DNA from: Gemmatimonas sp.
GTDB taxonomy: Bacteria > Gemmatimonadota > Gemmatimonadetes > Gemmatimonadales > Gemmatimonadaceae
Direction of reading: 5' to 3'
Assembly (NCBI GenBank): GCA_031414535.1
Contig: JANNVQ010000054.1
Coordinates: forward strand, 118,840 to 182,839
DNA length: 64,000 nt
The translations under genes were made by a program, and so were the position numbers. A model generated the notes under the pieces. The model saw nothing but the letters and a program-made list of their open reading frames with translations. It was not told the DNA's origin and ran no database searches. Positions 31,900 to 45,026 of this stretch are shown piece by piece. How positions within the stretch are numbered: position 1 is the first letter of the stretch; each line of letters opens with the position of its first letter.

Positions 31900-32502
31900 C
31901 TATTTCCGCTCGCGCGTTTCGTTCCAGGTTTTGAGCACATTGGACTGCGTGGGCCGATTCGTCGGTATCGCGCGAAGCGGTTCCACTTCGCGCCAACTGC
32001 CGCGCATCGCCGCGGGCAGCCGTTGATACAGGGCCGTACCCTCGCTCTTCCACGCGAGCATCTCGTCGCTCACGTCCTTCACAACCTTTGCCGGATTGCC
32101 AACCACAACCGAGCGCGGCGGAATCTGCATCTCGGCCGGCACGAAGCAGAGCGCCCCCACGATGCTGCCCGCTCCCACCACGGCATTGTCCATCACTACC
32201 GCGTTCATGCCAATGAGCGCGTTGGCGCCAATGCGCGCACCATGCACCACGGCGCCGTGGCCGATGTGGGCGCCCGCTTCGAGCACCACGACTACGCCAG
32301 GGAACATGTGAATGGTGCAGTTCTCCTGGATGTTGCAACCATCCTCAATCACGATGCCACCCCAGTCACCACGAATGGCCGCACCCGGGCCAACGTACAC
32401 ATCCTTCCCAATGATGACATTGCCGGTCACCGACGCCTTCGGATGCACGAAGGCGCTCTCGTGCACCACAGGAATGAAATCATCGAATGCGTAGATGCTC
32501 AT
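31900..32502 (-). CDS. paaY: Hexapeptide-repeat gamma-carbonic-anhydrase-like protein
   Basis: PVVHESAFVHP, IRGDWG, NIQENCTIH, HIGHGAVVHG; located in the paa operon. Confidence 0.85.
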   Translation of the reverse strand: MSIYAFDDFIPVVHESAFVHPKASVTGNVIIGKDVYVGPGAAIRGDWGGIVIEDGCNIQENCTIHMFPGVVVVLEAGAHIGHGAVVHGARIGANALIGMNAVVMDNAVVGAGSIVGALCFVPAEMQIPPRSVVVGNPAKVVKDVSDEMLAWKSEGTALYQRLPAAMRGSWREVEPLRAIPTNRPTQSNVLKTWNETRERK

Positions 32503-32509
32503 CTCAGCG

Positions 32510-33721
32510 TTACACGCGCTCAAGGATCACAGCGTAGCCCTGCCCCACGCCAATGCACATGGTGCAGAGGGCGTAGCGACCCTTCGTGCGCTGCAGTTGC
32601 CGAGCGGCCGTGAGTGCGAGCCGCGCACCACTCATGCCCAACGGATGCCCAAGCGCAATCGCACCGCCGTTTGGGTTCACTCGCGCGTCGTCATCAGCAA
32701 TGCCCAGTTCGCGCAAGCAGGCCAAGCCCTGTGCGGCAAACGCTTCGTTGAGCTCAATGACATTCATCTGGTCCAGCGTGAGCCCTGCGCGCTTGAGCGC
32801 AAGCCTCGTGGCAGGCACGGGACCCATGCCCATGATGCGCGGCTCCACTCCGGCGGCCGCGCTCGCCACCACGCGGGCAATCGGCTTCAGCTGATGCGAC
32901 TTGAGCGCGGCGTCCGAGGCAATGAGCAAGGCCGCCGCACCATCATTTAAGCCGGAGCTATTGCCGGCGGTCACCGAGCCCTGACCATCGTGGCGGAACG
33001 CCGGCTTCAGCTTGCCGAGCTTCTCCAACGTCGAATCCGGGCGAATGAACTCATCGTGTTGGAACGGCAACGGATCGCCCTTCTTCTGCGGGATGAGCAC
33101 CGGGACAATCTCTTCTGCGAGCCGCAGGTCATTGCGCGCCGCCAGCGCCTTTTGCTGCGAGCGCAGCGCAAACGCATCCTGATCCGCCCGGCTGATGTGA
33201 TAGCGAGCCGCCACATTCTCGGCCGTCTCGCCCATCGAGTCCGTGCCGTGGGCCTGCTTCATCGCGGGATTCACGAAGCGCCAGCCGAGCGCGGTATCAA
33301 ACAGCTGCATATCGCGGCCAAATGGCTGCGCACTCTTGCTGAGCACATAGGGTGCCCGTGTCATGCTCTCCACGCCGCCCGCCACGTAGAGGTCGCCCTC
33401 GCCGCTTTTGATGGCACGAGTGGCATTGGCCACGGCGCTCAATCCAGACGCGCAGAGACGGTTCACCGTCTCGCCTGGTACGGTCTGCGGCACGCCCGCG
33501 AGCAGGAGCGCCATACGCGACACATTGCGATTGTCCTCGCCCGCTTGATTGGCGCAACCGAGGATAACGTCCACGATGGCCGCCGGATCGAGTCCCGGAT
33601 GACGGCGCATCAGTTCTTTGATAGCGTGGGCGCCGAGATCGTCGGGGCGCACGGTGCTGAGCGAACCACCGAGGTTTCCAATCGGTGTGCGAACGCCGTC
33701 TACAATGAAGGCATCAGTCAT
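32510..33721 (-). CDS. paaJ: 3-oxoadipyl-CoA / 3-oxo-5,6-dehydrosuberyl-CoA thiolase
   Basis: GCANQAGEDNRNV, NRLCASG, NEAFA, GHPLG, MCIGVGQG. Confidence 0.92.
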   Translation of the reverse strand: MTDAFIVDGVRTPIGNLGGSLSTVRPDDLGAHAIKELMRRHPGLDPAAIVDVILGCANQAGEDNRNVSRMALLLAGVPQTVPGETVNRLCASGLSAVANATRAIKSGEGDLYVAGGVESMTRAPYVLSKSAQPFGRDMQLFDTALGWRFVNPAMKQAHGTDSMGETAENVAARYHISRADQDAFALRSQQKALAARNDLRLAEEIVPVLIPQKKGDPLPFQHDEFIRPDSTLEKLGKLKPAFRHDGQGSVTAGNSSGLNDGAAALLIASDAALKSHQLKPIARVVASAAAGVEPRIMGMGPVPATRLALKRAGLTLDQMNVIELNEAFAAQGLACLRELGIADDDARVNPNGGAIALGHPLGMSGARLALTAARQLQRTKGRYALCTMCIGVGQGYAVILERV

Positions 33722-34125
33722 CGGTGTGGCTTTTGGGTGCGGTACACGGTGCCGCGGAAATGTCCCACGGTCACCCCGTCCTGGTTGGTTACGGTCACTC
33801 TGGCAAATCCCACTTTGCGGGACGTCGTTTCCTGCTCACCAACGGCCGTGAGCACGTCACCGGGCTTCACGGCGGCCGGATAACTGATGGTGCAGTCGAG
33901 CGCGACGCTAATCTCGCCGCTGGCGTTGGTGCAGAACGCGTGTGCGGTATCGGCGAACGAGAACACGATGCCACCATGCGCCGTTCCGAAGCCATTCGTC
34001 ATCTCCTCGCGCACCGTCATCTGCAGTTCGCAGTAGCCCTCGCGCACAACGAGCACCTTGACGCCCAGCCACTGCGAGAACGCATCCTGCGCGAACATCT
34101 TCGCGATGACTTCGTTGGCGCTCAC
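33718..34125 (-). CDS. paaI: Hotdog-fold thioesterase
   Basis: DAFSQWLG, NGFGTAHGG, ADTA, FRGTVY; GTGA overlap with paaH. Confidence 0.88.
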   Translation of the reverse strand: MSANEVIAKMFAQDAFSQWLGVKVLVVREGYCELQMTVREEMTNGFGTAHGGIVFSFADTAHAFCTNASGEISVALDCTISYPAAVKPGDVLTAVGEQETTSRKVGFARVTVTNQDGVTVGHFRGTVYRTQKPHR

Positions 34126-35318
34126 GGCAGCAACTTCCCACCGCTCTTCGCCACACGGCGCAGCAGCGGACTCGGGCGATAACGATCCTCCCCGTACTCC
34201 TCTTGCAGCGACTCCAGCGTGGCTAACACACCCGCCGCGCCAATGGCGTCGCCCCATTCAAGCAGGCCGCGGGGATAGTTCACGCCCTTAGTCATCGCGG
34301 TTTCGATGTCTGCGGGTGATGCCACGCGCAGTTGCACCGCGTCCACCGCTTCATTGATCAGCATCGCCAACACGCGGTCGCGCACGGCACGCCCGAGCTG
34401 TTCGTCCTCAGTTGGCTTTGGCGCCACGGCGCCATCACGATAGTCGTAGTAGCCGCGCTTGGCCTTCCGCCCCAGCCACGCGGACTCCACCAAGCGCCGC
34501 TGTGTCAGCGCAGGCCGATAGCGTGGGTCAAAGTACATCGCCTCAAACACGGATTTGGTGACAGCATAGTTCACGTCGTTGCCAATCAAGTCCATCAGTT
34601 CGAACGGACCCATCTTAAAGCCGCCCAGCGTGCGCATCGCCCAGTCGATGGTCGGCACATCCGCGATGCCTTCCTCGAGAATCCGCAGCGACTCGCCGTA
34701 GTACGGTCGCGCGATGCGATTCACGATGAAGCCCGGCGTGTCCGACGCCACGACCGGCAGCTTGCCCCAGCGCTCGATGAGCGCGCGGCACTGCGCGAGC
34801 ACGTCCGGATCGGTGGCGAGCGCGGGAATCACTTCCACCAAGGCCATCACGGGCGCGGGGTTGAAGAAATGGATGCCAACCACGCGTTCACTCTTTTCAC
34901 AACCACCGGCGATGGCGGCGATGCTCAAAGAAGATGTATTCGACGCGAGCACCGCGTCGGCCGCCACAACGGACTCGAGCGCGCGAAACAGGCCCTGCTT
35001 TACGCCCAAGTCTTCGACGATGGCTTCAATTACGAGCCCACAACTTGCAAAGGCTTCGAGGTCGCTTGGCGAGACGCCAGCCACGTACGTGATACGCGAG
35101 AGCACGGCGTCGGCCTCAGACTGCGTGAGGCGCGCCTTCTCGACTTCGCGCGCCAAGGCCTTCTCGTGTCCGGCCTTTGCGCTCTTCACCGCTCCCGCAG
35201 AAGCGTCCGCGAGCACCGTCGCGTGCCCACGCATGGCGGCCACCTGCGCAATGCCGGCTCCCATCGTCCCCGCTCCCACCACACCGATGCGCGTCTGGGC
35301 GCCGAGTACGCGCGCCAT
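34122..35318 (-). CDS. paaH: 3-hydroxyacyl-CoA dehydrogenase
   Basis: GAGTMGAGIA, EAIVE, SNTSS, HFFNPAP, PGFIVNR, MGPFEL. Confidence 0.9.
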   Translation of the reverse strand: MARVLGAQTRIGVVGAGTMGAGIAQVAAMRGHATVLADASAGAVKSAKAGHEKALAREVEKARLTQSEADAVLSRITYVAGVSPSDLEAFASCGLVIEAIVEDLGVKQGLFRALESVVAADAVLASNTSSLSIAAIAGGCEKSERVVGIHFFNPAPVMALVEVIPALATDPDVLAQCRALIERWGKLPVVASDTPGFIVNRIARPYYGESLRILEEGIADVPTIDWAMRTLGGFKMGPFELMDLIGNDVNYAVTKSVFEAMYFDPRYRPALTQRRLVESAWLGRKAKRGYYDYRDGAVAPKPTEDEQLGRAVRDRVLAMLINEAVDAVQLRVASPADIETAMTKGVNYPRGLLEWGDAIGAAGVLATLESLQEEYGEDRYRPSPLLRRVAKSGGKLLP

Positions 35319-35320
35319 CG

Positions 35321-36106
35321 CTAGCGTCCCTTGTAGGTGGGTGCGCGCTTCTCAAGAAAGGCGCGTACGCCTTCTTCATAGTCGGCGGTGCTACCCGCCT
35401 CCTGCATACAGCGCGCTTCCATCTCAAGTTGCTCGTCGAGTGAGTTGGCCCAAGACGCGTTCATCGCACGCTTGGTCAGACCGAAGCCACGCGTAGCCTG
35501 CGTGGCCAGCGAGGCCGCAAGCGCCCGCGTAGTGCTCATCAAGTCCGCAGCCGGTGCGACGTCCCAAATGAGCCCCCAGTCCCTGGCCTGCTTTGCGCTC
35601 ATCTTCCCGGCGAGAAAAAACATCCCCGTCGCGCGTTGCGAGCCCACCAAGCGGGGCACGAAGAAGGTCCCGCTAGTGTCTGGGATGAGCCCGAGCTTCG
35701 CAAAGCTCTCTACGAAGCTTGCCTCCTCCGCCGCAATCGTGAGGTCGCAGGCAAAGGCCAAGTTCGCCCCGGCACCGGCGGCAATTCCGTTCACCGCACA
35801 AATCACCGGCTTCTCGAGCGAACGAATCGCACGGATGATTGGATTGTACGAGGCACGGACCACCTCGGAGATGTCAGGCATCGGTCCATCACCCACGGGG
35901 AGCACTTCCTGGAGATCTTGCCCCGCGCAGAAGCCCCGGCCTGCCCCCGTGAGCAGGACAGCCCGAATGTCGGAACCCGCCGCCGCGCGCGCCAACTCCA
36001 CTTGCAGCGCCTGCGCCATCGCGCGGTCAAAACTGTTGAGAACCTCGGGACGGTTCAGTGTTAGTTCGAGGACCCCGTCCTTGAGCTCGCTCAGGATGCT
36101 TGGCAT
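35321..36106 (-). CDS. paaG: 1,2-epoxyphenylacetyl-CoA isomerase (crotonase family)
   Basis: FCAGQDL, YNPII, AAGAGANLA, GLIPD. Confidence 0.9.
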   Translation of the reverse strand: MPSILSELKDGVLELTLNRPEVLNSFDRAMAQALQVELARAAAGSDIRAVLLTGAGRGFCAGQDLQEVLPVGDGPMPDISEVVRASYNPIIRAIRSLEKPVICAVNGIAAGAGANLAFACDLTIAAEEASFVESFAKLGLIPDTSGTFFVPRLVGSQRATGMFFLAGKMSAKQARDWGLIWDVAPAADLMSTTRALAASLATQATRGFGLTKRAMNASWANSLDEQLEMEARCMQEAGSTADYEEGVRAFLEKRAPTYKGR

Positions 36107-36127
36107 GGGCCGAAATCTACTGCTTGT

Positions 36128-36265
36128 TCACCACGGAGACACGGAGGCTCAGAGACGACTGAAGAAGGGCCTCCGAGGGTCGCACAATGAGGCGACGGGA
36201 CGCCACGGCCGGCAGGGGCTCTCCCTCGGAATTTCTGTCTCCGAGCCTCTGTGTCTCCGTGGTGA
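36128..36265. repeat. Palindromic CACGGAGG-type element, copy B
   Basis: TCACCACGGAGACACGGAGGCTCAGAGAC...GTCTCCGAGCCTCTGTGTCTCCGTGGTGA (27/29 complementary). Confidence 0.88.
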
Positions 36266-36297
36266 TGGCCGGTGTCTTATTGCTAGATTTCGACCCG

Positions 36298-38400
36298 ATG
36301 CCTCCCCAGACGAAAACCCCCGCCGCACCCGCCATCGATTGGCGCAAGGTCGCGTACAACCTACTCTGCTCCCGTGCGCTCGACGACGCCGAGGAACAGA
36401 CCAATCGGAACCGCGCCACCGTCCCCAAGGACCACGTGGTGCTCTACCAGTTCTCAGCGCGCGGCCACGACTTGGCGCAGGTCATCCTCGGCCAGTTGCT
36501 GACCGGCAAGCGCGATGCCGCGGGCGCCTACTATCGCAGCCGGCCGCTCCTCTTGTCTCTTGGCCTCTCACTCGAGGATGCCTTTGGCTCACCGCTCGGC
36601 CGCGCCGGCGGCTTTTCTGACGGCCGCGACATCGGCGTTGTCTGCAACTTCCCGCGCGAGGAAGGCTGCATCGTCCTGCCGATGGCCGGTGATGTGGGCT
36701 CCCAATACACCCCGACGGCGGGCTGGGCGCAGGGCATCCTCTACAACAGCGAGATTCTCAAGGACCATCGCTATCACAAGTCCATCGGCGTCGCGCTCGG
36801 CGGTGATGCGTCGGTGGCGACGAGCGGATTCTGGTCGGCCCTCACAATGGCCACCACGCTCAAGTTGCCGATGCTGTTCTATATCGAAGACAACAACCTC
36901 GGCATTTCCGTCTCGGGCGATTTCCAGACACCCGGCGGCGATATCGCAGCCAATCTCTCGTCGTTTAAGAATCTGCTGATTCGCAACGGCGATGGCACGA
37001 ACCCCGCGGATAGCGCTGAGAAGTTGACCGAAGCTGTTGCGCATGTGCGCTCTGGCAAGGGCCCTGCCCTCGTGCGTCTCACCGTGCCACGTCTGTCCTC
37101 GCACTCGGGGCCGGACAACCAGAAAGGCTATCGCTCGGACGCGGAGATCGCCGCCGACCAGCAGCGCGACCCGTTGCCTCGGCTCCGAAGCTTTCTTGTG
37201 CCCTCGCAGTTGAGCGCGGCCGAGTGGAGCCAACTCGAAGCAGACGTCTCACGCGATGTGGAACGCGCACTCTCAGCCGCGCGCACTCGCCCAAAGCCCG
37301 ACCCGGCCAAGATTGCGATGTACATCCACGCCGACGATACCGACGGCGCTCCGGAAGCCTTCGGGGGCCTGCGCCGCAGCGAGCGCTTTGCGCAGAAGCG
37401 CAGCGAAAGCGCCGCCGAGAACGGTGAGATGCTTCGCTTTGCCGAGGCCGTGCGCCGCACGCTGCGCCATGAACTGCAGGTCAATCCCAAGGTCGTGGTC
37501 TTCGGCGAGGATGTGGGCAAGAAGGGTGGCGTACACCTCGTCACTGAAGGCCTGCAAAAATCCTTCGGCAGCGATCGCGTGTTCGACACCTCGCTCAGCG
37601 AAGAAGGCATCATTGGCCGCGCCGCCGGACTCGCCATCGCGGGCCTCATGCCGGTGGCGGAGATTCAGTTTCGAAAGTACGCTGACCCCGCCACCGAGCA
37701 ACTCAACAACGCCGGCACCCTGCGTTGGCGCACCGCGAATCGTTTTGCCTCGCCGATGGTGGTGCGTATGCCCGGGGGCTACGGCAAGGACGTGGGCGAT
37801 CCTTGGCATTCACTGAGCGACGAGGTGCGCTTTGCGCACGCCTATGGTTGGCAGCTCGCCATTCCATCCAACGCCGCCGACGCAGTGGGCCTGCTGCGTA
37901 CGGCCATGCGTAGCCCCAACCCCACGGTGTTCTTCGAGCATCGTTCACTGCTGATGACCGGCGACGGCAGCGCGCGCTATCCTGGCGACGACTACGTGAT
38001 TCCCTTTGGCCGCGCCCGCGTGGTGCAGCCGGGCAAGTCACTCACCATGGTGAGCTGGGGCGCCATGGTGCATCGCTGCGCCGAGGCTGCCGCTCAACTC
38101 GGCGACGCTGTAGAGTTGCTGGACCTTCGCACGATTGCGCCTTGGGACCGCGACGCGGTGCTTGCGAGCGTGCGAAAGACCGGCCGCTGCTTGATTGTGC
38201 ACGAGGACAATCTCACCGCGGGCTTTGGTGCTGAAGTCGCGGCGACCATTACGCAGGACGCCTTCTGGTACTTGGATGCGCCGGTGGAGCGTCTCGCCCC
38301 AAAGGACATCCCAATGCCGTATCACCCGGATCTGTTGGCCGCAGTGCTCCCAGATGTGCCGGAGATACTGGCGTGTGCGGAACGAGTGCTGCGTACCTAG
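36298..38400 (+). CDS. Fused 2-oxoacid dehydrogenase E1 alpha/beta (ThDP-dependent)
   Basis: GDAS...EDNN ThDP motif, RLSSHS, GEDVG, RVFDTSLSEEGIIG, EIQF, FFEH, DLRTI, VHED. Confidence 0.9.
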   Translation: MPPQTKTPAAPAIDWRKVAYNLLCSRALDDAEEQTNRNRATVPKDHVVLYQFSARGHDLAQVILGQLLTGKRDAAGAYYRSRPLLLSLGLSLEDAFGSPLGRAGGFSDGRDIGVVCNFPREEGCIVLPMAGDVGSQYTPTAGWAQGILYNSEILKDHRYHKSIGVALGGDASVATSGFWSALTMATTLKLPMLFYIEDNNLGISVSGDFQTPGGDIAANLSSFKNLLIRNGDGTNPADSAEKLTEAVAHVRSGKGPALVRLTVPRLSSHSGPDNQKGYRSDAEIAADQQRDPLPRLRSFLVPSQLSAAEWSQLEADVSRDVERALSAARTRPKPDPAKIAMYIHADDTDGAPEAFGGLRRSERFAQKRSESAAENGEMLRFAEAVRRTLRHELQVNPKVVVFGEDVGKKGGVHLVTEGLQKSFGSDRVFDTSLSEEGIIGRAAGLAIAGLMPVAEIQFRKYADPATEQLNNAGTLRWRTANRFASPMVVRMPGGYGKDVGDPWHSLSDEVRFAHAYGWQLAIPSNAADAVGLLRTAMRSPNPTVFFEHRSLLMTGDGSARYPGDDYVIPFGRARVVQPGKSLTMVSWGAMVHRCAEAAAQLGDAVELLDLRTIAPWDRDAVLASVRKTGRCLIVHEDNLTAGFGAEVAATITQDAFWYLDAPVERLAPKDIPMPYHPDLLAAVLPDVPEILACAERVLRT

Positions 38401-38452
38401 GACGGATGACGGATGACGGAAGCTTGTTGCATCCGTCATCCGTCATCCGTCC
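38400..38452. repeat. Palindromic GACGGAT-type element, copy 3
   Basis: GGACGGATGACGGATGACGGA-N11-TCCGTCATCCGTCATCCGTCC, perfect 21-bp arms. Confidence 0.92.
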
Positions 38453-38463
38453 CCCATCAAGCA

Positions 38464-38492
38464 TTGCCCAACTTCGTCCCAGCACGTATTTT
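38464..38492 (+). promoter_or_regulatory. Sigma70-type promoter candidate for the leader-MATE transcript
   Basis: TTGCCC-N17-TATTTT. Confidence 0.55.
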
Positions 38493-38524
38493 CTTAACCG
38501 TTCCCCCAACCTGAGCCCGCTAAG

Positions 38525-38611
38525 ATGATCCTGCTCGCCCCAACCATGCGCCCGGTACCGACCGCCGTCGGTGTCGTAGTGCGTGCGCGCGAAGCAGGGC
38601 ACCTCGGGTAG
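38525..38611 (+). CDS. Putative 28-aa leader peptide MILLAPTMRPVPTAVGVVVRAREAGHLG
   Basis: Small ATG..TAG ORF between the promoter and a terminator; its 3' end contains the antiterminator strand. Confidence 0.55.
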   Translation: MILLAPTMRPVPTAVGVVVRAREAGHLG

Positions 38612-38642
38612 CAGCGACACTTCCGTCGCGCCTCGCGGATCC

Positions 38643-38685
38643 ACGCCCCTCCTGCTTCGTACAGCGGATGGGGCGTTTTCATTTT
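38643..38685 (+). terminator. Attenuator terminator in the MATE 5' leader
   Basis: ACGCCCC-TCC-T-GCT-loop-AGC-GGA-T-GGGGCGT followed by TTTCATTTT, about 20 nt before the MATE ATG. Confidence 0.7.
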
Positions 38686-38704
38686 GACTCCGTGAGTGTT
38701 CCCT

Positions 38705-40126
38705 ATGCATACCAGTCCTAACTCCACGCCCACTACCGAGCCCACGAGCGTCTGGCGCGATATCCGCGACGCCATTCGTGGCTCGGAGCACGACTACACG
38801 CAGGGCCCAATCGGTCGCGCAATCTTCTTGCTCGCCGTTCCCATGGTGCTCGAGATGTCCATGGAGAGCATCTTCGCCGTCGTTGATGCCTTCTTCGTCG
38901 GACGGCTTGGGCCTGCCGCGGTGGCCACGATCGGTCTCACCGAATCACTGATGGTCGTCATCTATACTGTGGCGATGGGGCTCAGCATCGGTGCCACCGC
39001 CACCGTCGCACGCCGCATCGGCGAGAAGGATCCCGATGGTGCCGCGCGCGCTACCGTTCAGGCGCTCATGCTCGGCCTTCTTCTCTCCACGGTGCTCGGC
39101 GTGTTCGGTGCGATCTATGCACCGGAGTTGCTCGCCCTCATGGGCGCCGATGCCGAGGTGCTGGCGGTGGGCACAGGCTTCGCTCGCGTCTCGCTCGCGT
39201 GCAACGGTGGCGTCTTCCTGCTCTTCCTCATCAATGCCGCGTTCCGAGGCGCCGGCGACGCGGCCGTGGCCATGCGCGTGCTGGTGTTGGGCAATGCCAT
39301 CAACATCGTGCTCGACCCGCTTCTCATCTTTGGCGTGGGATTCTTTCCTGAGATGGGGCTCGTGGGTGCGGCGTGGGCAACTGTCATCGGCCGCGTGACC
39401 GGTTTCCTCTGGGCGCTTTGGCACTTGAGCGCTGGTGAGGGCAACCTGCACGTGCACAAACATCACGTGGTCGTGGAGCCTAAGGAGATGCTGAGCATCG
39501 CCAAGCTCTCGGGCTGGGGCACCTTCCAAGTCGCACTGAGCTCAATGAGTTGGATTGCACTTGTGCGTCTGACCTCGACCTTTGGCGCAGCGACATTGGC
39601 TGGGTACACCATCTCCATCCGCATTCTGCTCTTCGCGCTCATGCCGGCCTATGGCGTGGGAGCCGCGGCCGCGACGATGGTGGGCCAAGCACTCGGCGCC
39701 CAGAACCCCGACCGCGCCGAGCAATCGGTGTGGGTGGCGGCGCGGATGAACATGCTGCTCCTCGGCCTCACCGGCGTGCTCTTCTGGATTTTCGCGCCCA
39801 CGATGGTCAGCTGGTTCAGCGATACGGCGGAAGTGCGCATCGTCGCGAGCTATGCGCTGCGTACCATGTCACTGGGCTTCCCACTCTATGCGCTCGGCAT
39901 GGTGCTGGAGCAGTCCTTCAACGGCGCGGGAGACACGCGCACGCCAAGCTGGATCAACTTCTTCGTGTTCTGGGTCTTCCAGATTCCACTGGCCTGGTGG
40001 ATGTCGCAGCGCACGGACTTGGGCTTCCGCGGCGTGTTCATTGCGGTGCCGATGGCGTACTCGGCGCTGGCGATTGTGAGTGCGATTTTGTTCCGGCGGG
40101 GGAGCTGGAAGCAAAGGCGTATCTAG
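38705..40126 (+). CDS. MATE family efflux transporter
   Basis: LAVPMVLE, VDAFFVGRLG, FRGAGD, NIVLDPLLIFG, GAAWAT, GQALGA, GAGDT. Confidence 0.95.
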   Translation: MHTSPNSTPTTEPTSVWRDIRDAIRGSEHDYTQGPIGRAIFLLAVPMVLEMSMESIFAVVDAFFVGRLGPAAVATIGLTESLMVVIYTVAMGLSIGATATVARRIGEKDPDGAARATVQALMLGLLLSTVLGVFGAIYAPELLALMGADAEVLAVGTGFARVSLACNGGVFLLFLINAAFRGAGDAAVAMRVLVLGNAINIVLDPLLIFGVGFFPEMGLVGAAWATVIGRVTGFLWALWHLSAGEGNLHVHKHHVVVEPKEMLSIAKLSGWGTFQVALSSMSWIALVRLTSTFGAATLAGYTISIRILLFALMPAYGVGAAAATMVGQALGAQNPDRAEQSVWVAARMNMLLLGLTGVLFWIFAPTMVSWFSDTAEVRIVASYALRTMSLGFPLYALGMVLEQSFNGAGDTRTPSWINFFVFWVFQIPLAWWMSQRTDLGFRGVFIAVPMAYSALAIVSAILFRRGSWKQRRI

Positions 40127-40193
40127 GACGGATGACGGATGACGGCTACACAGGCGGTCTGTGCGCATCCGTCATGCGTCATCCGTCCTAGAT
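40121..40193. repeat. Palindromic GACGGAT-type element, copy 4, containing both convergent TAG stops
   Basis: ATCTAGGACGGATGACGGATGACGG...CCGTCATGCGTCATCCGTCCTAGAT. Confidence 0.92.
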
Positions 40194-40685
40194 CGCCTTA
40201 AACTCGTCAAACGGCTGCTTGCAGTCCTTACACACGTGAATCGCTTTGCAAGCCGTTGATCCAAACTCGCTCTTGAGCGAGGTGTTCCGCGATCCACACC
40301 ACGGGCACTGCACAGGGGGCTTGGCACGCACCAGCGTGACCAAGCCTCCGTCGTCTGCGCGGCCTGGCGGTGCAATTCCGTACTTGCGAAGCTTTTCGCG
40401 CGCCGACTCAGGAATCCAATCGGTGGTCCAGGCCGGCGAGAGCACGGTCTTCACCTCCACCGATGTCGCGCCAGCGGCCTCAAGCGCGGAAATCACGTCG
40501 CGCTCAATCTCGAACATCGCGGGGCAGCCGCTATACGTGGGCGTGATGGTCACTTCCACGCCGCCATCCTCGCGCTGATGCGCATCGCGCACGATGCCGA
40601 GTTCCACAACGGAAATCACTGGCACCTCGGGATCCGGGACGGTCCCAAGGATTGCGAAGAGTTGATCGCGGCTGAACGTCGTCAT
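40188..40685 (-). CDS. paaD: Phenylacetyl-CoA epoxidase-associated subunit D
   Basis: VPDPEVPVISVVELGIVR, TPTYSGCPAM, PAWTTDW, CPWC, FGSTACK, PFDEFK. Confidence 0.93.
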   Translation of the reverse strand: MTTFSRDQLFAILGTVPDPEVPVISVVELGIVRDAHQREDGGVEVTITPTYSGCPAMFEIERDVISALEAAGATSVEVKTVLSPAWTTDWIPESAREKLRKYGIAPPGRADDGGLVTLVRAKPPVQCPWCGSRNTSLKSEFGSTACKAIHVCKDCKQPFDEFKAI

Positions 40686-40722
40686 GTGAGATGAACGCGA
40701 CAGTGTGGCGCCGCGTTCGCGC

Positions 40723-41565
40723 TTACCAGGTCGCGCCAGGGTGGGCCCGCGCCACGCTCTGCATCGTGGCCAACAGATGCCCGATGTGTTCCGTATGCCG
40801 ACCGCGGCGTCCGCCCTGCTGCATGGCCCCGTCAGCCGGACGCACAAGCGTCGCGCGCGCGAAGACGTCGTTGACCAGCGAATCCCAACGCGACTTGATA
40901 CCCGCCACATCAACGGTGATGCCCGCGGCCTGAGCAGCCACGTCAATTTCGTCGGTCACGAACATCTCGCCTGTGTACGGCCACAAGCGATCCACCGACG
41001 CCTGCACGCGCGCGTGACTCTCCGCGGTACCATCGCCGAGGCGCACCACCCATTCACTGGAATGCCGGAGGTGGTACTTGTCTTCCTTGAGCGCCTTGGC
41101 GGCAATCGCCGCGAGCTGGGCGTGCCCGCACCGCGTGAACTCGTCAAGCAGCAGCACGCTGTGAGCATCGAAAAAGAACTGCCGGACCATCGAATGGCCG
41201 AAGTCTCCCCGCGGAAGCTCGACGAGCAGGCAATTGCGGAACAGCGTGCCATCACGGAAGTACGCGAGCGCGTTCTCATCACGCCCCTTCCCCTCGGTCT
41301 CGCCCGCGAGCTTGAGCAACTGCGCCGCTTGGCCAATCAAGTCCAACGCGATGTTCGCGGTGGCAATGTCCTCTTCGAGAATCGGGCCGTGGCCCGTCCA
41401 CTCCGACATGCGGTGCCCGAGAATCAGGCGGTCGTCGCCGAGGCGCAGAAAGTATTCCACCAGTGGCGCAGCGAACGCCGCGCGGCGTGCTCCGGCCACA
41501 TTGCCGACGCCCGCCTTCGCCTCGCCCGCGGCGATGCCGCCTGCTTCCCCTTCGAGCTCAGCCAT
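40723..41565 (-). CDS. paaC: Phenylacetyl-CoA epoxidase subunit C
   Basis: LGDDRLILGHRMSEW, GPILEEDIA, ALDLIGQA, KEDKYH, terminal HPGATW. Confidence 0.95.
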   Translation of the reverse strand: MAELEGEAGGIAAGEAKAGVGNVAGARRAAFAAPLVEYFLRLGDDRLILGHRMSEWTGHGPILEEDIATANIALDLIGQAAQLLKLAGETEGKGRDENALAYFRDGTLFRNCLLVELPRGDFGHSMVRQFFFDAHSVLLLDEFTRCGHAQLAAIAAKALKEDKYHLRHSSEWVVRLGDGTAESHARVQASVDRLWPYTGEMFVTDEIDVAAQAAGITVDVAGIKSRWDSLVNDVFARATLVRPADGAMQQGGRRGRHTEHIGHLLATMQSVARAHPGATW

Positions 41566-41855
41566 CAGAAAACGCGCATGCCCTGCGGCACCTTATAGAA
41601 CTGCGGGTGACGGTAGGCCTTGTCGTTGCCAGGCTCAAAGAACGGCCCCGCGTCCGACGGGGCGGATGCCGTAATCGCACTCGCCGGCACCACCCAGAGA
41701 TTCACGGCTTCGCCGCGGCGCGTGTAGACATCGCGCGCATTCTGCAGGGCGTGCTCGGCGTCCGTTGCGTGCAAAGAGCCAGCGTGTTCAAAGGGTTCAC
41801 CCTGGTTGCCCTGGGTGAACACCTCCCACAGCGGCCATGATTGTTCCGTTCCCAT
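41565..41855 (-). CDS. paaB: Phenylacetyl-CoA epoxidase subunit B
   Basis: WPLWEVF, HAGSLHA, ARDVYTRR, KAYRHP. Confidence 0.95.
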   Translation of the reverse strand: MGTEQSWPLWEVFTQGNQGEPFEHAGSLHATDAEHALQNARDVYTRRGEAVNLWVVPASAITASAPSDAGPFFEPGNDKAYRHPQFYKVPQGMRVF

Positions 41856-41890
41856 AGTCAACTCTCGATCAAGAAAAAACTCCAAGGACT

Positions 41891-42014
41891 TCACCACAAA
41901 GGCACGAAGGGTTTGGACCCACCTCAGGCATCCCCGCGCTGTTCAACATCAATACCCGACTGGAACAGCGAGACAGAACATGAGCCTACTGGGAGCCCTT
42001 CGTGCCTTCGTGGT
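41891..42014. repeat. Palindromic CACGAAGG-variant element, copy C
   Basis: ACCACAAAGGCACGAAGGG...CCCTTCGTGCCTTCGTGGT (18/19) between paaA and paaB. Confidence 0.8.
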
Positions 42015-42028
42015 CCGTGCAGTTTCAG

Positions 42029-42991
42029 CTACGCTGCTGACGACGTCTTGTCGCGCTTCGCCGCGTGCGCCAATGCCGCCTCGCGCACCCAGGCCCCTTC
42101 GTCGTGCGCCTTGTTGCGCGCTTCGAGTCGCTCGACGTTGCACGGACCATTGCCCTTCACCACTTCCCAGAACTCGGACCAGTCAATCTCTCCAAACTCC
42201 CAGTTCTTGGTCTCAGCATCGAACTTAAGATCCGGATCCGGCAGCGTGATGCCAATCGCCTGCGCCTGCGGCACCGTAAGATTCACAAACCGCTGACGCA
42301 GCTCGTCGTTGGTCTTGCGCTTCACACGCCACTTAAGCAATTCCGCCGAATTCGGCGAGTCCTTGTCGCTCGGGCCAAACATCGCCAGCGATGGCCACCA
42401 GAAGCGGTTCACCGCATCCTGCAACATCTCCTTCTGCGCTGGCGTGCCCTTGGCCAGCGTCGCGCAGATCTCGAAACCCTGACGCTTGTGGAAGTTTTCT
42501 TCCTTGCAGATGCGCACCATCGCGCGCGCGTACGGGCCATATGAGGCCTTCGCCAGTACGGTTTGATTCACGATCGCCGCGCCGTCTACAAACCAGCCAA
42601 TCACACCCATATCGGCCCAGCTGAGCGTCGGATAATTGAAGATGCTCGAGTATTTGGCCGTACCATCGAGCAGCTGATTGAACAGGTCGTGGCGATCCAC
42701 GCCCAAGGTCTCGGTGCCGCAGTAGATGTACAGACCGTGGCCGGCCTCGTCCTGCACCTTGGCAATGAGCGACATCTTGCGGCGCAGCGAAGGCGCGCGC
42801 GTGATCCAATTGCCCTCAGGCAGCATCCCCACAATTTCGGAATGCGCGTGCTGGGCCATCATGCGCGTCAGCTGCTTGCGGTAGCGCTCGGGCATCCAGT
42901 CCTTGGGCTCGATGCTCTCACCGGCGGCGATGCGGGCCTCAAAGGCGGCCAGGAGCGCCGGATCCTCCTGCGGGATGGTCGTCTGGGTCAT
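42029..42991 (-). CDS. paaA: Phenylacetyl-CoA epoxidase catalytic di-iron subunit A
   Basis: [46 protein letters not shown]. Confidence 0.97.
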
Positions 42992-43018
42992 GGCCAGAAA
43001 TTTACTATGTTTCCCGGT

Positions 43019-43816
43019 ATGACGCCCACCGAATCCAGCCCTAATGCACGTTCTGACGCCCCCACCGATGGACGCGTCCAGCTATCCATCGCAGACGGAA
43101 TCGGAACTGTCGAGTTTTTCCATCCAAAGGGGAACTCCTTACCCTCGGCTTTGCTGCGCAGGCTCGCCGACGGCATCACGACGTTGGGGCAAGACCCTGC
43201 CGCTCGCGTAATCGTCTTGCGCTCCGCGGGAGAAGGAGCCTTCTGCGCCGGCGCGTCCTTCGATGAGTTCACCGCCCTCGCCGATCCCGCCGAGGGCAAG
43301 GAGTTCTTCCTCGGCTTCTCCAAGGTGATTCTCGCGATGATCCGCGCGCCGAAGTTCGTCATCACGCGCGTGCACGGACGCGCCGCGGGTGGCGCACTCG
43401 GCGTCATCGCCGCCAGCGACTACTCGTTTGCGGTTGAGTCCGCGCAGGCCAAGCTCTCGGAACTGGCAGTCGGCATCGGACCATTCGTGGTGGGAGTGGT
43501 CCTCGAGAGAAAACTCGGCCAGGCGGCGTTCCAAAACTTGGCGGTTCACGCTGATTGGCACGATGCCGTGTGGTGCGAGCGCCACGGTCTCTACTCGCAG
43601 GTCAGCGATAACCTACACGCCCTTGATGCCATCGTACACTCGCACGCCGTGCGGCTTGCCGCAGCCAATCCCGAGGCCATGCACGAGATGAAGCGCGTCT
43701 TCTGGCGCAACACCGAGGACTGGGAGGCGCAGATGGACTCGCGCGCGGCGATGAGCGGACGGATGGTGCTGAGCGACTTCACCCGCGAGGCGCTGGCAAA
43801 GTTCCGCGCGCGTTGA
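43019..43816 (+). CDS. Enoyl-CoA hydratase/isomerase family protein (candidate PaaF substitute)
   Basis: FCAGASF, AAGGALG (no first catalytic Glu), [10 protein letters not shown]; divergent from paaA. Confidence 0.85.
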
Positions 43817-43850
43817 TTGTCGCTTGACTCGCGCAATCTCGCGCGAGTCC

Positions 43851-45026
43851 TCACGCGTAGACCGCAGTCACCGCTTCTTCGAAGGTCTCGCGGTGCCCGC
43901 CTTTGATGATACGAGCCGTCGTCTCGAAGCCAGCCTGCTCGAGCCTGCGCGCCGCAATCAGCATGGTCTGCACTTCGAAGCGCTGCTTCTCAATCACGGC
44001 GAGGTATTCCTCCACCGCCGTGAGATAGCCCATCATCCCGCCGAGTTCGCAGGGCGCGAAGACTTTCTGCGCGTCGCGCAGCACTTCCACACCCTGGGCA
44101 TCGGGCATCACGAGGTTTTCGCTGCCGCAGATCACCTTGAGGCGGGCGTTAGCCGTACAAGCGGAGATTGACGCGGCATCCAACGTGCCGCCCGCCGCAT
44201 TCACCACGAGCGCGTCCATTGGCAGCGAGAGGAACTCACGCTTGCGCTCCGGCCCCCAAGTGCGGATGCCCATCGCTTCCAACTCCGCGCGGCGTTCCTC
44301 GCGCGACTCACAGGCGAGAATCGTCACGCCGCGGTGCCTCTGCAACTCGCGAATGATGTGCATCCCAATGTTGCCGCAGCCAATCAGCGCAACGGTGGAC
44401 TGCGCGAGCGGGATGCCGTAGGCGCGCAACATACCGTGCAAGAGCTGGAAGTTGCCTTCGCCCGTGGGCACCGAAGTATCCGCCACCACGCTGCCCGCAA
44501 AGCGCGCGTGCAGGAACTCCAGCGAGCCGGTCTTCCCGTCAGACATCCGACCATGGCCGAGGTCCTGGCCCGTCGTGATGTGAATGCCCGCCTCGGACTC
44601 CACATCGTTCAAACAATTCGCCGCCCACTCGAGCATCTCGGCATCGCGCGCGTTGCCCACCCGCCCGTCCGCGGTGGGTGCGAGTACGCACTTGCCGCCC
44701 ACCACCCGCGTGAGATCACGCAGCGCGAGCGGACCACCGACCTTGATCACGCGCGACCAATGCACCTTCTCTTCCATACCCATCGCTAAGGCAATCGCCT
44801 CACGATCCGTCGTGAACCCGGCGGACTCGGTACGCTCGAGCGGGGCAATGCGAAAACCGCCGAGCGAGAGCTTGCCAGAACCCGGCGGCGCATGAGTCGC
44901 GATAGAGAGCACCCAGGGCAGCCTGGGGTGCTGGTACCGATAAACCCAAACGTTCGGATTTCGCGTATCAGACAGCTCTGGAACGAGCTGCGCGGAGTCG
45001 GCTGGAGAAATTGTTTTTCTTTGCAC
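43851..45026 (-). CDS. Divergent Glu/Leu/Phe/Val dehydrogenase-like protein
   Basis: LGGFRI, LAMGMEEK, GGKCVL, TGQDLG, TSVPTGEG, IGCGNIG, ICGSEN appear in the order of the ELFV-DH motifs. Confidence 0.7.
   Translation of the reverse strand: MQRKTISPADSAQLVPELSDTRNPNVWVYRYQHPRLPWVLSIATHAPPGSGKLSLGGFRIAPLERTESAGFTTDREAIALAMGMEEKVHWSRVIKVGGPLALRDLTRVVGGKCVLAPTADGRVGNARDAEMLEWAANCLNDVESEAGIHITTGQDLGHGRMSDGKTGSLEFLHARFAGSVVADTSVPTGEGNFQLLHGMLRAYGIPLAQSTVALIGCGNIGMHIIRELQRHRGVTILACESREERRAELEAMGIRTWGPERKREFLSLPMDALVVNAAGGTLDAASISACTANARLKVICGSENLVMPDAQGVEVLRDAQKVFAPCELGGMMGYLTAVEEYLAVIEKQRFEVQTMLIAARRLEQAGFETTARIIKGGHRETFEEAVTAVYA

What the first reader, a model, noticed from the sequence alone, without database searches (positions are those of the whole stretch)
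38464..38707. Leader-peptide attenuator controlling a MATE efflux pump
Seen in the sequence, in order: promoter-like TTGCCC-N17-TATTTT (38464-38492); an unannotated 28-codon ORF (38525-38611); a GC-rich hairpin with a T-tail (38643-38685); then the MATE ATG. CGAAGCAGG (38590-38598, codons R-E-A-G of the small ORF) is perfectly complementary to CCTGCTTCG (38651-38659) in the 5' arm and loop of the terminator, so the two structures are mutually exclusive. Established: ribosome-mediated attenuation works this way, and translation-inhibitor-induced attenuators control resistance and efflux genes. Inference: full translation masks the antiterminator (OFF), while stalling in roughly the first 16 codons frees it (ON). 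The peptide has an R-A-R (+X+) motif and a VGVVV run, but stalling at RAR would cover the antiterminator, so the inducing signal is open. I recognise no named family for this leader.
Basis: partly seen in the sequence, partly recalled or inferred. Interest (0 to 1): 0.8.

Follow-up and report, generated by a model that had tools for sequence, protein, structure and literature searches.

The report
Stall-sensing RNA switch for efflux pump
A conserved RNA switch containing a tiny gene sits in front of a MATE-family efflux pump in Gemmatimonadota bacteria and likely turns the pump on when ribosomes stall early in that tiny gene, probably as a broad alarm for translation-blocking drugs rather than for one peptide motif.

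Summary
The element is real and conserved. In 35 close Gemmatimonadaceae leaders the promoter recurs (34 of 35; shuffles 1.1) and a TAG lies 18 nt after the antiterminator anchor. All 25 frame-blind SD-plus-start motifs are in frame with it. Antiterminator and terminator both keep their pairs, with a few compensatory changes. A promoter-plus-terminator leader precedes 54 of 129 family MATE orthologs, in two RNA types.

The peptide is not conserved (13-46 aa), and RAR and VGVVV are not kept. New here: an anti-antiterminator over the uORF start, and an anti-SD stem that can hide the MATE ribosome site. In silico a ribosome on the start codon gives the antiterminator in 35 of 35; one at the stop gives it in none.

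The best reading is a peptide-agnostic stall sensor, working like the whiB7, bmrB, vmlR and cplR leaders. The same scaffold precedes rtcB, Ro60, dksA-like and pheA genes. The main rival is Val/Thr-tRNA shortage: the leaders are 1.8-fold Val/Thr-rich and the genus lacks ilvC. No Rfam match, paper, earlier scan note or RNA data was found. The inducer is untested.

The parts
38401..38451 (.). REP-like inverted repeat after the upstream E1 dehydrogenase gene; not part of the switch
   Evidence: folds at -43.9 kcal/mol; its 12-mer occurs 208 times in the genome
38464..38492 (+). sigma-70-type promoter TTGCCC-N17-TATTTT (predicted)
   Evidence: same spacing in 34 of 35 homologous leaders vs 1.1 in shuffles
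38525..38611 (+). leader ORF, 28 codons; fixed stop, variable peptide
   Evidence: five codons shorter than the 33-aa leader of its 91%-identical relative L031, in frame
38529..38537 (+). strand 1, anti-antiterminator, in codons 2-5; the predicted helix extends over the uORF SD and start
   Evidence: P(1:2)=0.89 without a ribosome; in the 14 leaders where strand 2 is sequestered, its partner lies at -13..+19 of the start in 14 of 14
38545..38585 (+). hairpin inside the uORF (codons 8-21); possible pause or timing element, role unknown
   Evidence: relatives carry a CCGG-N2..7-CCGG element here in mixed frames, 23 of 35 vs 2.2 in codon shuffles
38590..38598 (+). strand 2, 5' arm of the antiterminator (codons 22-25)
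   Evidence: 97% of cells paired across 35 leaders; A-U to G-C in 6
38614..38629 (+). small spacer hairpin with variable loop
38632..38639 (+). anti-SD strand; pairs with 38689-38696 in the OFF fold
   Evidence: P>0.5 in 19 of 35 homologs in the OFF state; 0 of 35 with the antiterminator forced
38643..38685 (+). intrinsic-terminator-like hairpin with imperfect U-tract; contains strand 3 (38651-38659)
   Evidence: 93% of cells paired, C-G to U-A in 7; about -19 kcal/mol
38689..38696 (+). MATE Shine-Dalgarno region, hidden in the OFF fold
38705..40126 (+). MATE transporter (473 aa), nearest solved relative PfMATE
   Evidence: TIGR00797 and PF01554; E 1.7e-42 to 3vvn with PfMATE D41, N180, D184 and T202 positions kept (their cation-binding role is recalled)

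Best explanation
This is a conserved leader with a short ORF, antiterminator and terminator in front of a MATE pump, which likely works as a ribosome-position switch: predicted OFF when a ribosome reaches the last seven codons, and predicted ON when it is arrested at or soon after the start codon, most probably by translation inhibitors in general. Steps. Shown by comparison: promoter, SD-led in-frame ORF, stop fixed 10-11 nt after strand 2, two mutually exclusive helices. Computed: a ribosome on codons 19-28 covers strand 2, so the terminator forms and its extension hides the MATE SD. A ribosome on the first codons covers strand 1 and frees strand 2 to capture the terminator's 5' arm. In this window an untranslated leader folds 1:2 and stays OFF. 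Inferred: the switch is decided during transcription, because for most stall positions the terminator is 3-6 kcal/mol more stable. Termination and SD masking probably act together. Untested: the inducer, and whether the pump exports it.
For: Peptide identity is irrelevant but geometry is fixed. Lengths are 13-41 aa in 35 close leaders with the same stop offset, and short forms arose in at least three separate places on the MATE tree (quick tree). A 13-aa leader leaves only about codons 1-3 able to free strand 2. A start-codon ribosome gives P(2:3) of at least 0.97 in 35 of 35; a ribosome at the stop gives 0. Strand 1 sits on the start in 14 of 14. In 25 of 29 divergent leaders (8.3 expected) the best partner of the terminator arm lies near the uORF stop, with 22 different sequences. 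Some lineages split the ORF into two overlapping ORFs. The same scaffold precedes rtcB, TROVE/Ro60 and dksA/traR-like genes. Acidobacteriota orthologs carry unrelated SD-led MR/MK uORFs, as short as 4 aa, in 12 of 27 vs 1.1 in shuffles (pattern chosen after viewing). Precedents: vmlR (abstract), cplR, whiB7, bmrB, toiL (passages).
Against: There are no expression data. Val (14.7%) and Thr (10.6%) are about 1.8-fold above the genome in all three leader groups, while same-scaffold leaders at other genes have 5.6% Val (7 leaders); a purely generic sensor does not explain this. Strand 1 dominates the ribosome-free fold in only 14 of 35 leaders. Covariation is thin: one antiterminator pair, from 1-2 events on the tree. 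With the terminator complete, the antiterminator is favoured in a minority (median ddG +2.3 kcal/mol). The U-tract is weak, and the SD is only slightly more open in the ON fold (median 0.28 vs 0.17 unpaired). The pump's substrate is unknown. 75 of 129 family orthologs had no leader by these patterns.
Confidence: 0.6

Rival explanations
1. The same switch, but the main signal is shortage of charged Val/Thr(/Ile) tRNA. The MATE would then serve amino-acid homeostasis, or expel inhibitors of their synthesis or charging.
For: Val and Thr are enriched in all three groups, with Val biased to GTC (68% vs 27%). In close leaders Val peaks 4-8 codons before the anchor codon. This genome has no ilvB and no ilvC over cut-off, and ilvC passes cut-off in 1 of 55 genus genomes. 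The same scaffold makes a Phe-rich pheA leader, and a similar one a Leu/Val/Ile-rich ilvB leader. whiB7 is tuned to alanine in this way (passages).
Against: 5 of 86 leaders have no Val where a stall could act, and 2 have no V/T/I. Density is low: median 4 V/I/L per best 10 residues vs 7 in the ilvB leader, and V/I/T triplets are not above shuffles. Genomes that have ilvB (G301, G109, G133) keep the same kind of MATE leader. Characterised MATEs export (own knowledge), and the cation-pocket positions are kept. The GTC bias may come from GAC/GTC hairpins.
Confidence: 0.22
2. The leader is a drug-specific arrest peptide (macrolide-type +X+, or beta-branched context).
For: +X+ occurs in the permissive part of 21 of 35 close leaders vs 7.6 expected. 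Several Acidobacteriota uORFs begin MRxR. A Val-dependent tylosin stall is reported in toiL (passages).
Against: There is no +X+ enrichment in the 29 divergent or 22 type-B leaders. 51 of 86 lack it, including this window's permissive part. In close leaders it is confounded with a CCGG..CCGG element read as Pro or Arg in mixed frames.
Confidence: 0.1
3. Control is translational only (SD masking, perhaps followed by Rho), or the RNA is switched by a protein or ligand and the ORF is incidental.
For: The U-tract is weak, the anti-SD stem is present, and the Acidobacteriota leaders mostly lack an intrinsic terminator.
Against: A T-rich tail follows the hairpin throughout the alignment. The anti-SD stem is strong in only 19 of 35. 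The 25 of 25 in-frame starts and the coding-frame composition argue that the ORF is selected. No Rfam match.
Confidence: 0.08

Closest known systems
whiB7/wblC uORF attenuator (Actinobacteria)
   Same: Long, length- and sequence-variable uORF with a compositional bias; full translation gives the terminator; responds to ribosome drugs and amino-acid starvation (10.1101/2023.06.02.543512, passages).
   Different: No homology shown; it controls a transcription factor; its bias is Ala, here Val/Thr; here there is also an anti-SD stem.
bmrB leader of bmrCD (Bacillus subtilis)
   Same: Ribosome-mediated attenuation of an efflux pump by several translation inhibitors, with a 1:2, 2:3, 3:4 layout (PMC4191407, passages).
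   Different: ABC pump; the terminator lies inside the 53-codon ORF; no homology shown.
vmlR, cplR and rli53/lmo0919 leaders (ARE-ABCF)
   Same: A stall on the uORF blocks an anti-antiterminator; transcriptional and translational attenuation are combined (PMC9226507 abstract; 10.1101/2022.12.05.519065 passages).
   Different: Their uORF consensus is about 3 codons; here the ORF is 13-46 codons and its far end covers the antiterminator; the target is a MATE.
toiL/topAI uORF (Escherichia coli)
   Same: Stalls at several positions, including the start codon, induce (PMC12121999, passages).
   Different: Translational control plus Rho; toxin-antitoxin target; conserved N-terminus.
Amino-acid attenuators (trpL, pheL, ilv leaders)
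   Same: Four-strand layout; pheA and ilvB leaders with a similar 3' end occur in the same order.
   Different: No dense run of cognate codons in the MATE leaders; the target is not biosynthetic.

Membership tests
Ribosome-mediated transcription attenuator (class) | Short SD-led ORF in the leader, under selection | tested here: met
   25 of 25 frame-blind SD+start motifs in frame with the stop; translation itself not observed
Ribosome-mediated transcription attenuator (class) | Antiterminator overlapping the ORF, exclusive with the terminator | tested here: met
Ribosome-mediated transcription attenuator (class) | Functional intrinsic terminator (hairpin plus U-tract) | tested here: inconclusive
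   hairpin conserved; median 5 T in 8 nt; no 3'-end data
Ribosome-mediated transcription attenuator (class) | Read-through depends on ribosome stalling in vivo | not testable with these tools
   in silico only
Classic amino-acid attenuator | Dense run of cognate codons where a stall acts | tested here: inconclusive
   Val/Thr 1.8-fold enriched but sparse; Val absent there in 5 of 86
Classic amino-acid attenuator | Regulated gene makes, imports or charges that amino acid | tested here: not met
   the gene is a MATE; substrate unknown
ARE-ABCF-type leader (vmlR, cplR, rli53) | Start-codon stall masks an anti-antiterminator | tested here: met
   window and 14 of 35 homologs, in silico
ARE-ABCF-type leader (vmlR, cplR, rli53) | uORF of about 3 codons upstream of an ABCF gene | tested here: not met
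   13-46 codons; MATE target
whiB7- or bmrB-type antibiotic-responsive leader | Induction by translation inhibitors | not testable with these tools
   needs bench data
Macrolide +X+ arrest peptide | Conserved R/K-X-R/K at a permissive position | tested here: not met
   absent in 51 of 86, including this window
Any Rfam family | Covariance-model match | tested here: not met
   0 at gathering over the window; only sub-threshold miRNA hits away from the leader in 7 loci

The most novel reading that the evidence does not exclude
Gemmatimonadota reuse one attenuator scaffold across a regulon and tune it only by leader composition: Phe for pheA, Leu/Val/Ile for ilvB, mixed for rtcB, Ro60 and dksA-like genes, and Val/Thr for this MATE. 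The pump would then be a MATE switched on by Val/Thr-tRNA shortage in branched-chain auxotrophs, pointing to amino-acid homeostasis or export of tRNA-synthetase inhibitors.
Probability: 0.2. Interest if true: 0.75.

Novelty: new member of a known kind. Interest (0 to 1): 0.52.

Why it matters
It adds an apparently undescribed family of leader-peptide switches in an abundant, little-studied phylum and links a MATE pump to ribosome-stall sensing. The 86 natural variants (13-46 codons, two RNA types, split ORFs, repeated losses) form a ready-made series for asking whether such leaders read ribosome position or peptide composition. The switch also gives a route to the pump's unknown substrate: whatever induces it is a candidate cargo.

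Tried and rejected
Rfam: nothing at gathering or over the leader at E<=1. Sequencing runs: no RNA holder was listed, which is no evidence either way. A second copy in the own genome: not found with model R1 (one weak hit at E 0.43). Use of the close leader before other genes: 26 of 41 pattern hits in the genome collection were Gemmatimonadota and all 26 lay beside the MATE; the other 15 lacked the full anchor and the MATE and were dropped as chance. A promoter between hairpin and gene: only 19 nt separate the T-tract from the ATG, and none was found. RAR, VGVVV, PP and [AST]xK as conserved motifs: not supported. A functional tie to the E1/paa neighbourhood: the upstream gene differs among relatives, though the MATE directly follows E1 in four leaderless relatives. 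A first, non-specific folding metric was replaced by pair-specific probabilities. Type B strand assignment by duplex search was inconsistent, so type B geometry rests on inspection. The 16S 3' end was not found in the assembly. Literature searches listed no paper on this leader. Two of them (MATE transporter + transcription attenuation + leader + ribosome stalling; T-box + MATE + amino acid transporter + valine) returned 0. Dar et al. 2016 was not held.

Full report
OBSERVATION. Every element is at the stated coordinates. The MATE starts at 38705. The 9-nt complement is matched in 16 of 5000 shuffles. The organism is a Gemmatimonadaceae member, judged from record titles of the closest leaders. 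Rfam has no match.

CONSERVATION. The 241-nt leader matched 29 of 54 genomes of the genus (incomplete genomes included). Searches gave 35 distinct close leaders ('A1'), selected by the antiterminator anchor and its partner, so those two features are present by construction. Features not selected for: a TTG-N16..18-TANNNT promoter in 34 of 35 (shuffles 1.1); and an SD-like GGTGY plus start, located without regard to frame in 25 of 35 and in frame with the TAG in all 25 (for the window itself this rule picks an internal GTG, and 38525 is preferred by homology to L031). The TAG offset was first seen in 27 leaders found without requiring it; later patterns required it. ORF length runs from 13 to 41 aa. 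Only the last six codons resemble each other, and they are RNA-constrained. The antiterminator is 97% paired, with A-U to G-C in six sequences, which is 1-2 events on a quick MATE tree. The terminator is 93% paired, with C-G to U-A in seven.

WIDER DISTRIBUTION. The MATE was found in 135 of 251 family genomes. I examined 129 upstream regions; six were left out, one because it is unpublished and three already seen as leaders. A promoter plus terminator was found in 54: 33 of the same type (including this genome) and 21 of a second type B. In 25 of 29 divergent type-A leaders the best partner of the terminator arm lies near the uORF stop (8.3 expected; 22 distinct sequences). The leader also occurs in a second family and in 12 of 80 metagenome loci. 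It is lost in at least two lineages, where the MATE directly follows the E1 gene. Several lineages split the ORF into two overlapping ORFs, the second covering strand 2. Among 27 Acidobacteriota orthologs, 12 have an SD-led MR/MK uORF of 4-26 aa against 1.1 in shuffles. That pattern was defined after viewing the data, and these leaders mostly lack an intrinsic terminator.

MECHANISM (computed). For the window, folded up to the end of strand 3: with no ribosome, strand 1 (38529-38537, extending over the uORF start) holds strand 2 (0.89). With a ribosome masked on codons 1-12 or 16-17, the antiterminator forms (0.95 or more); it is weaker at 13-15 and 18 and impossible at 19-28. Once the terminator is complete, only the codon-1 ribosome keeps the antiterminator favoured, so other stalls must act kinetically. 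Across A1, a start-codon ribosome gives the antiterminator in 35 of 35 and a stop-codon ribosome in none. The free RNA sequesters strand 2 in 14 of 35, always with a partner at -13..+19 of the start; in the other 21 the free RNA already forms the antiterminator. The OFF fold extends into a stem hiding the MATE SD (window 0.94; above 0.5 in 19 of 35). The U-tract is weak (median 5 of 8). I infer combined termination and SD masking, as reported for vmlR and cplR. The footprint (-12..+15) is an assumption, and kin are not independent.

SIGNAL. The positional reading is favoured by the 13-aa leaders, repeated shortening, split ORFs, the start-site strand 1, the efflux-family target, and the same scaffold upstream of rtcB (2 loci), TROVE/Ro60 (1) and dksA/traR-like genes (4) among 25 loci inspected. 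Against it, 86 leaders (starts of the divergent ones picked by hand) are 14.7% Val and 10.6% Thr versus 8.1% and 6.0% in long genome ORFs, and nearly lack Glu (that background may include shadow ORFs). Seven same-scaffold ORFs at other genes have 5.6% Val. The genus looks auxotrophic for branched-chain amino acids (ilvC over cut-off in 1 of 55). But genomes with ilvB keep the leader, a true ilvB leader in the family is denser and Leu-rich, and 5 of 86 have no Val where it could act. +X+ is enriched only in A1, where it coincides with a frame-independent CCGG..CCGG element. My odds: general stall sensor 0.6, Val/Thr shortage 0.22, drug-specific peptide 0.1, other 0.08; about 0.9 that it is a ribosome-dependent switch of some kind. 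As with whiB7, the first two are not exclusive.

KNOWN SYSTEMS. It works like the whiB7, bmrB, vmlR/cplR and toiL leaders, but no homology to them was found and it fails their family-specific features. Papers seen: passages of PMC4191407, 10.1101/2023.06.02.543512, PMC11550727, PMC12121999, PMC5314783 and 10.1101/2022.12.05.519065; abstract and outline of PMC9226507. Dar 2016 and Lee 2022 were seen only as cited by these. Ten full-text searches listed no description of this leader. Supplements of Term-seq and RNA-motif surveys were not seen and could list MATE leaders. The scan's earlier notes held nothing on it.

VERDICT. A real, apparently undescribed family within a known class of regulators; the inducer is open and directly testable. 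Interest 0.52.

Noticed in passing
L120 (G296:C19:9106-9216, -) and L123 (G099:C2:1020990-1021100, +): Phe-rich leader ORFs with antiterminator and terminator upstream of a gene that looks like prephenate dehydratase (identified by eye); 3' end similar to the MATE leader.
   Followed up: partly
L383:1171-1302 (G301): Leu/Val/Ile-rich 43-codon leader with terminator upstream of ilvB, containing the same GGAGCAGGG string in another frame.
   Followed up: partly
L262, L263, L259: Attenuator-like leaders upstream of rtcB (L262 by Pfam, L263 by eye) and TROVE/Ro60; all three share a short element GGGAGTCGCGTCCCGA near the 5' end, with no Rfam hit in the two scanned.
   Followed up: partly
L255, L267, L113, L114; L253, L254, L256, L257: Same terminator scaffold upstream of dksA/traR zinc-finger genes and of small proteins without a Pfam family.
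   Followed up: partly
L354-L380, L273 (Acidobacteriota MATE orthologs): Short MR/MK uORFs followed by pyrimidine-rich tracts, possibly Rho- or translation-based control.
   Followed up: partly
uORF bodies of A1 and A2 leaders: CCGG-N2..7-CCGG in mixed reading frames (23 of 35 and 12 of 29; about 2 expected); possible pause hairpin; unexplained.
   Followed up: partly
G000 and genus g1: ilvB not found in G000 (98% complete) and ilvC over cut-off in 1 of 55 genomes: likely branched-chain auxotrophy.
   Followed up: partly
window 31900-45026: The MATE and a fused E1 2-oxoacid dehydrogenase interrupt what look like phenylacetate-catabolism genes, with a Leu/Phe/Val-dehydrogenase-like gene nearby (names by eye; E1).
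   Followed up: no
window 38401-38451 and near 40127-40190: REP-like repeat flanking the leader-MATE unit; its 12-mer occurs 208 times in the genome.
   Followed up: partly
L043 (G003:C320): Degenerate leader: terminator kept, but no promoter-uORF anchor before it.
   Followed up: no
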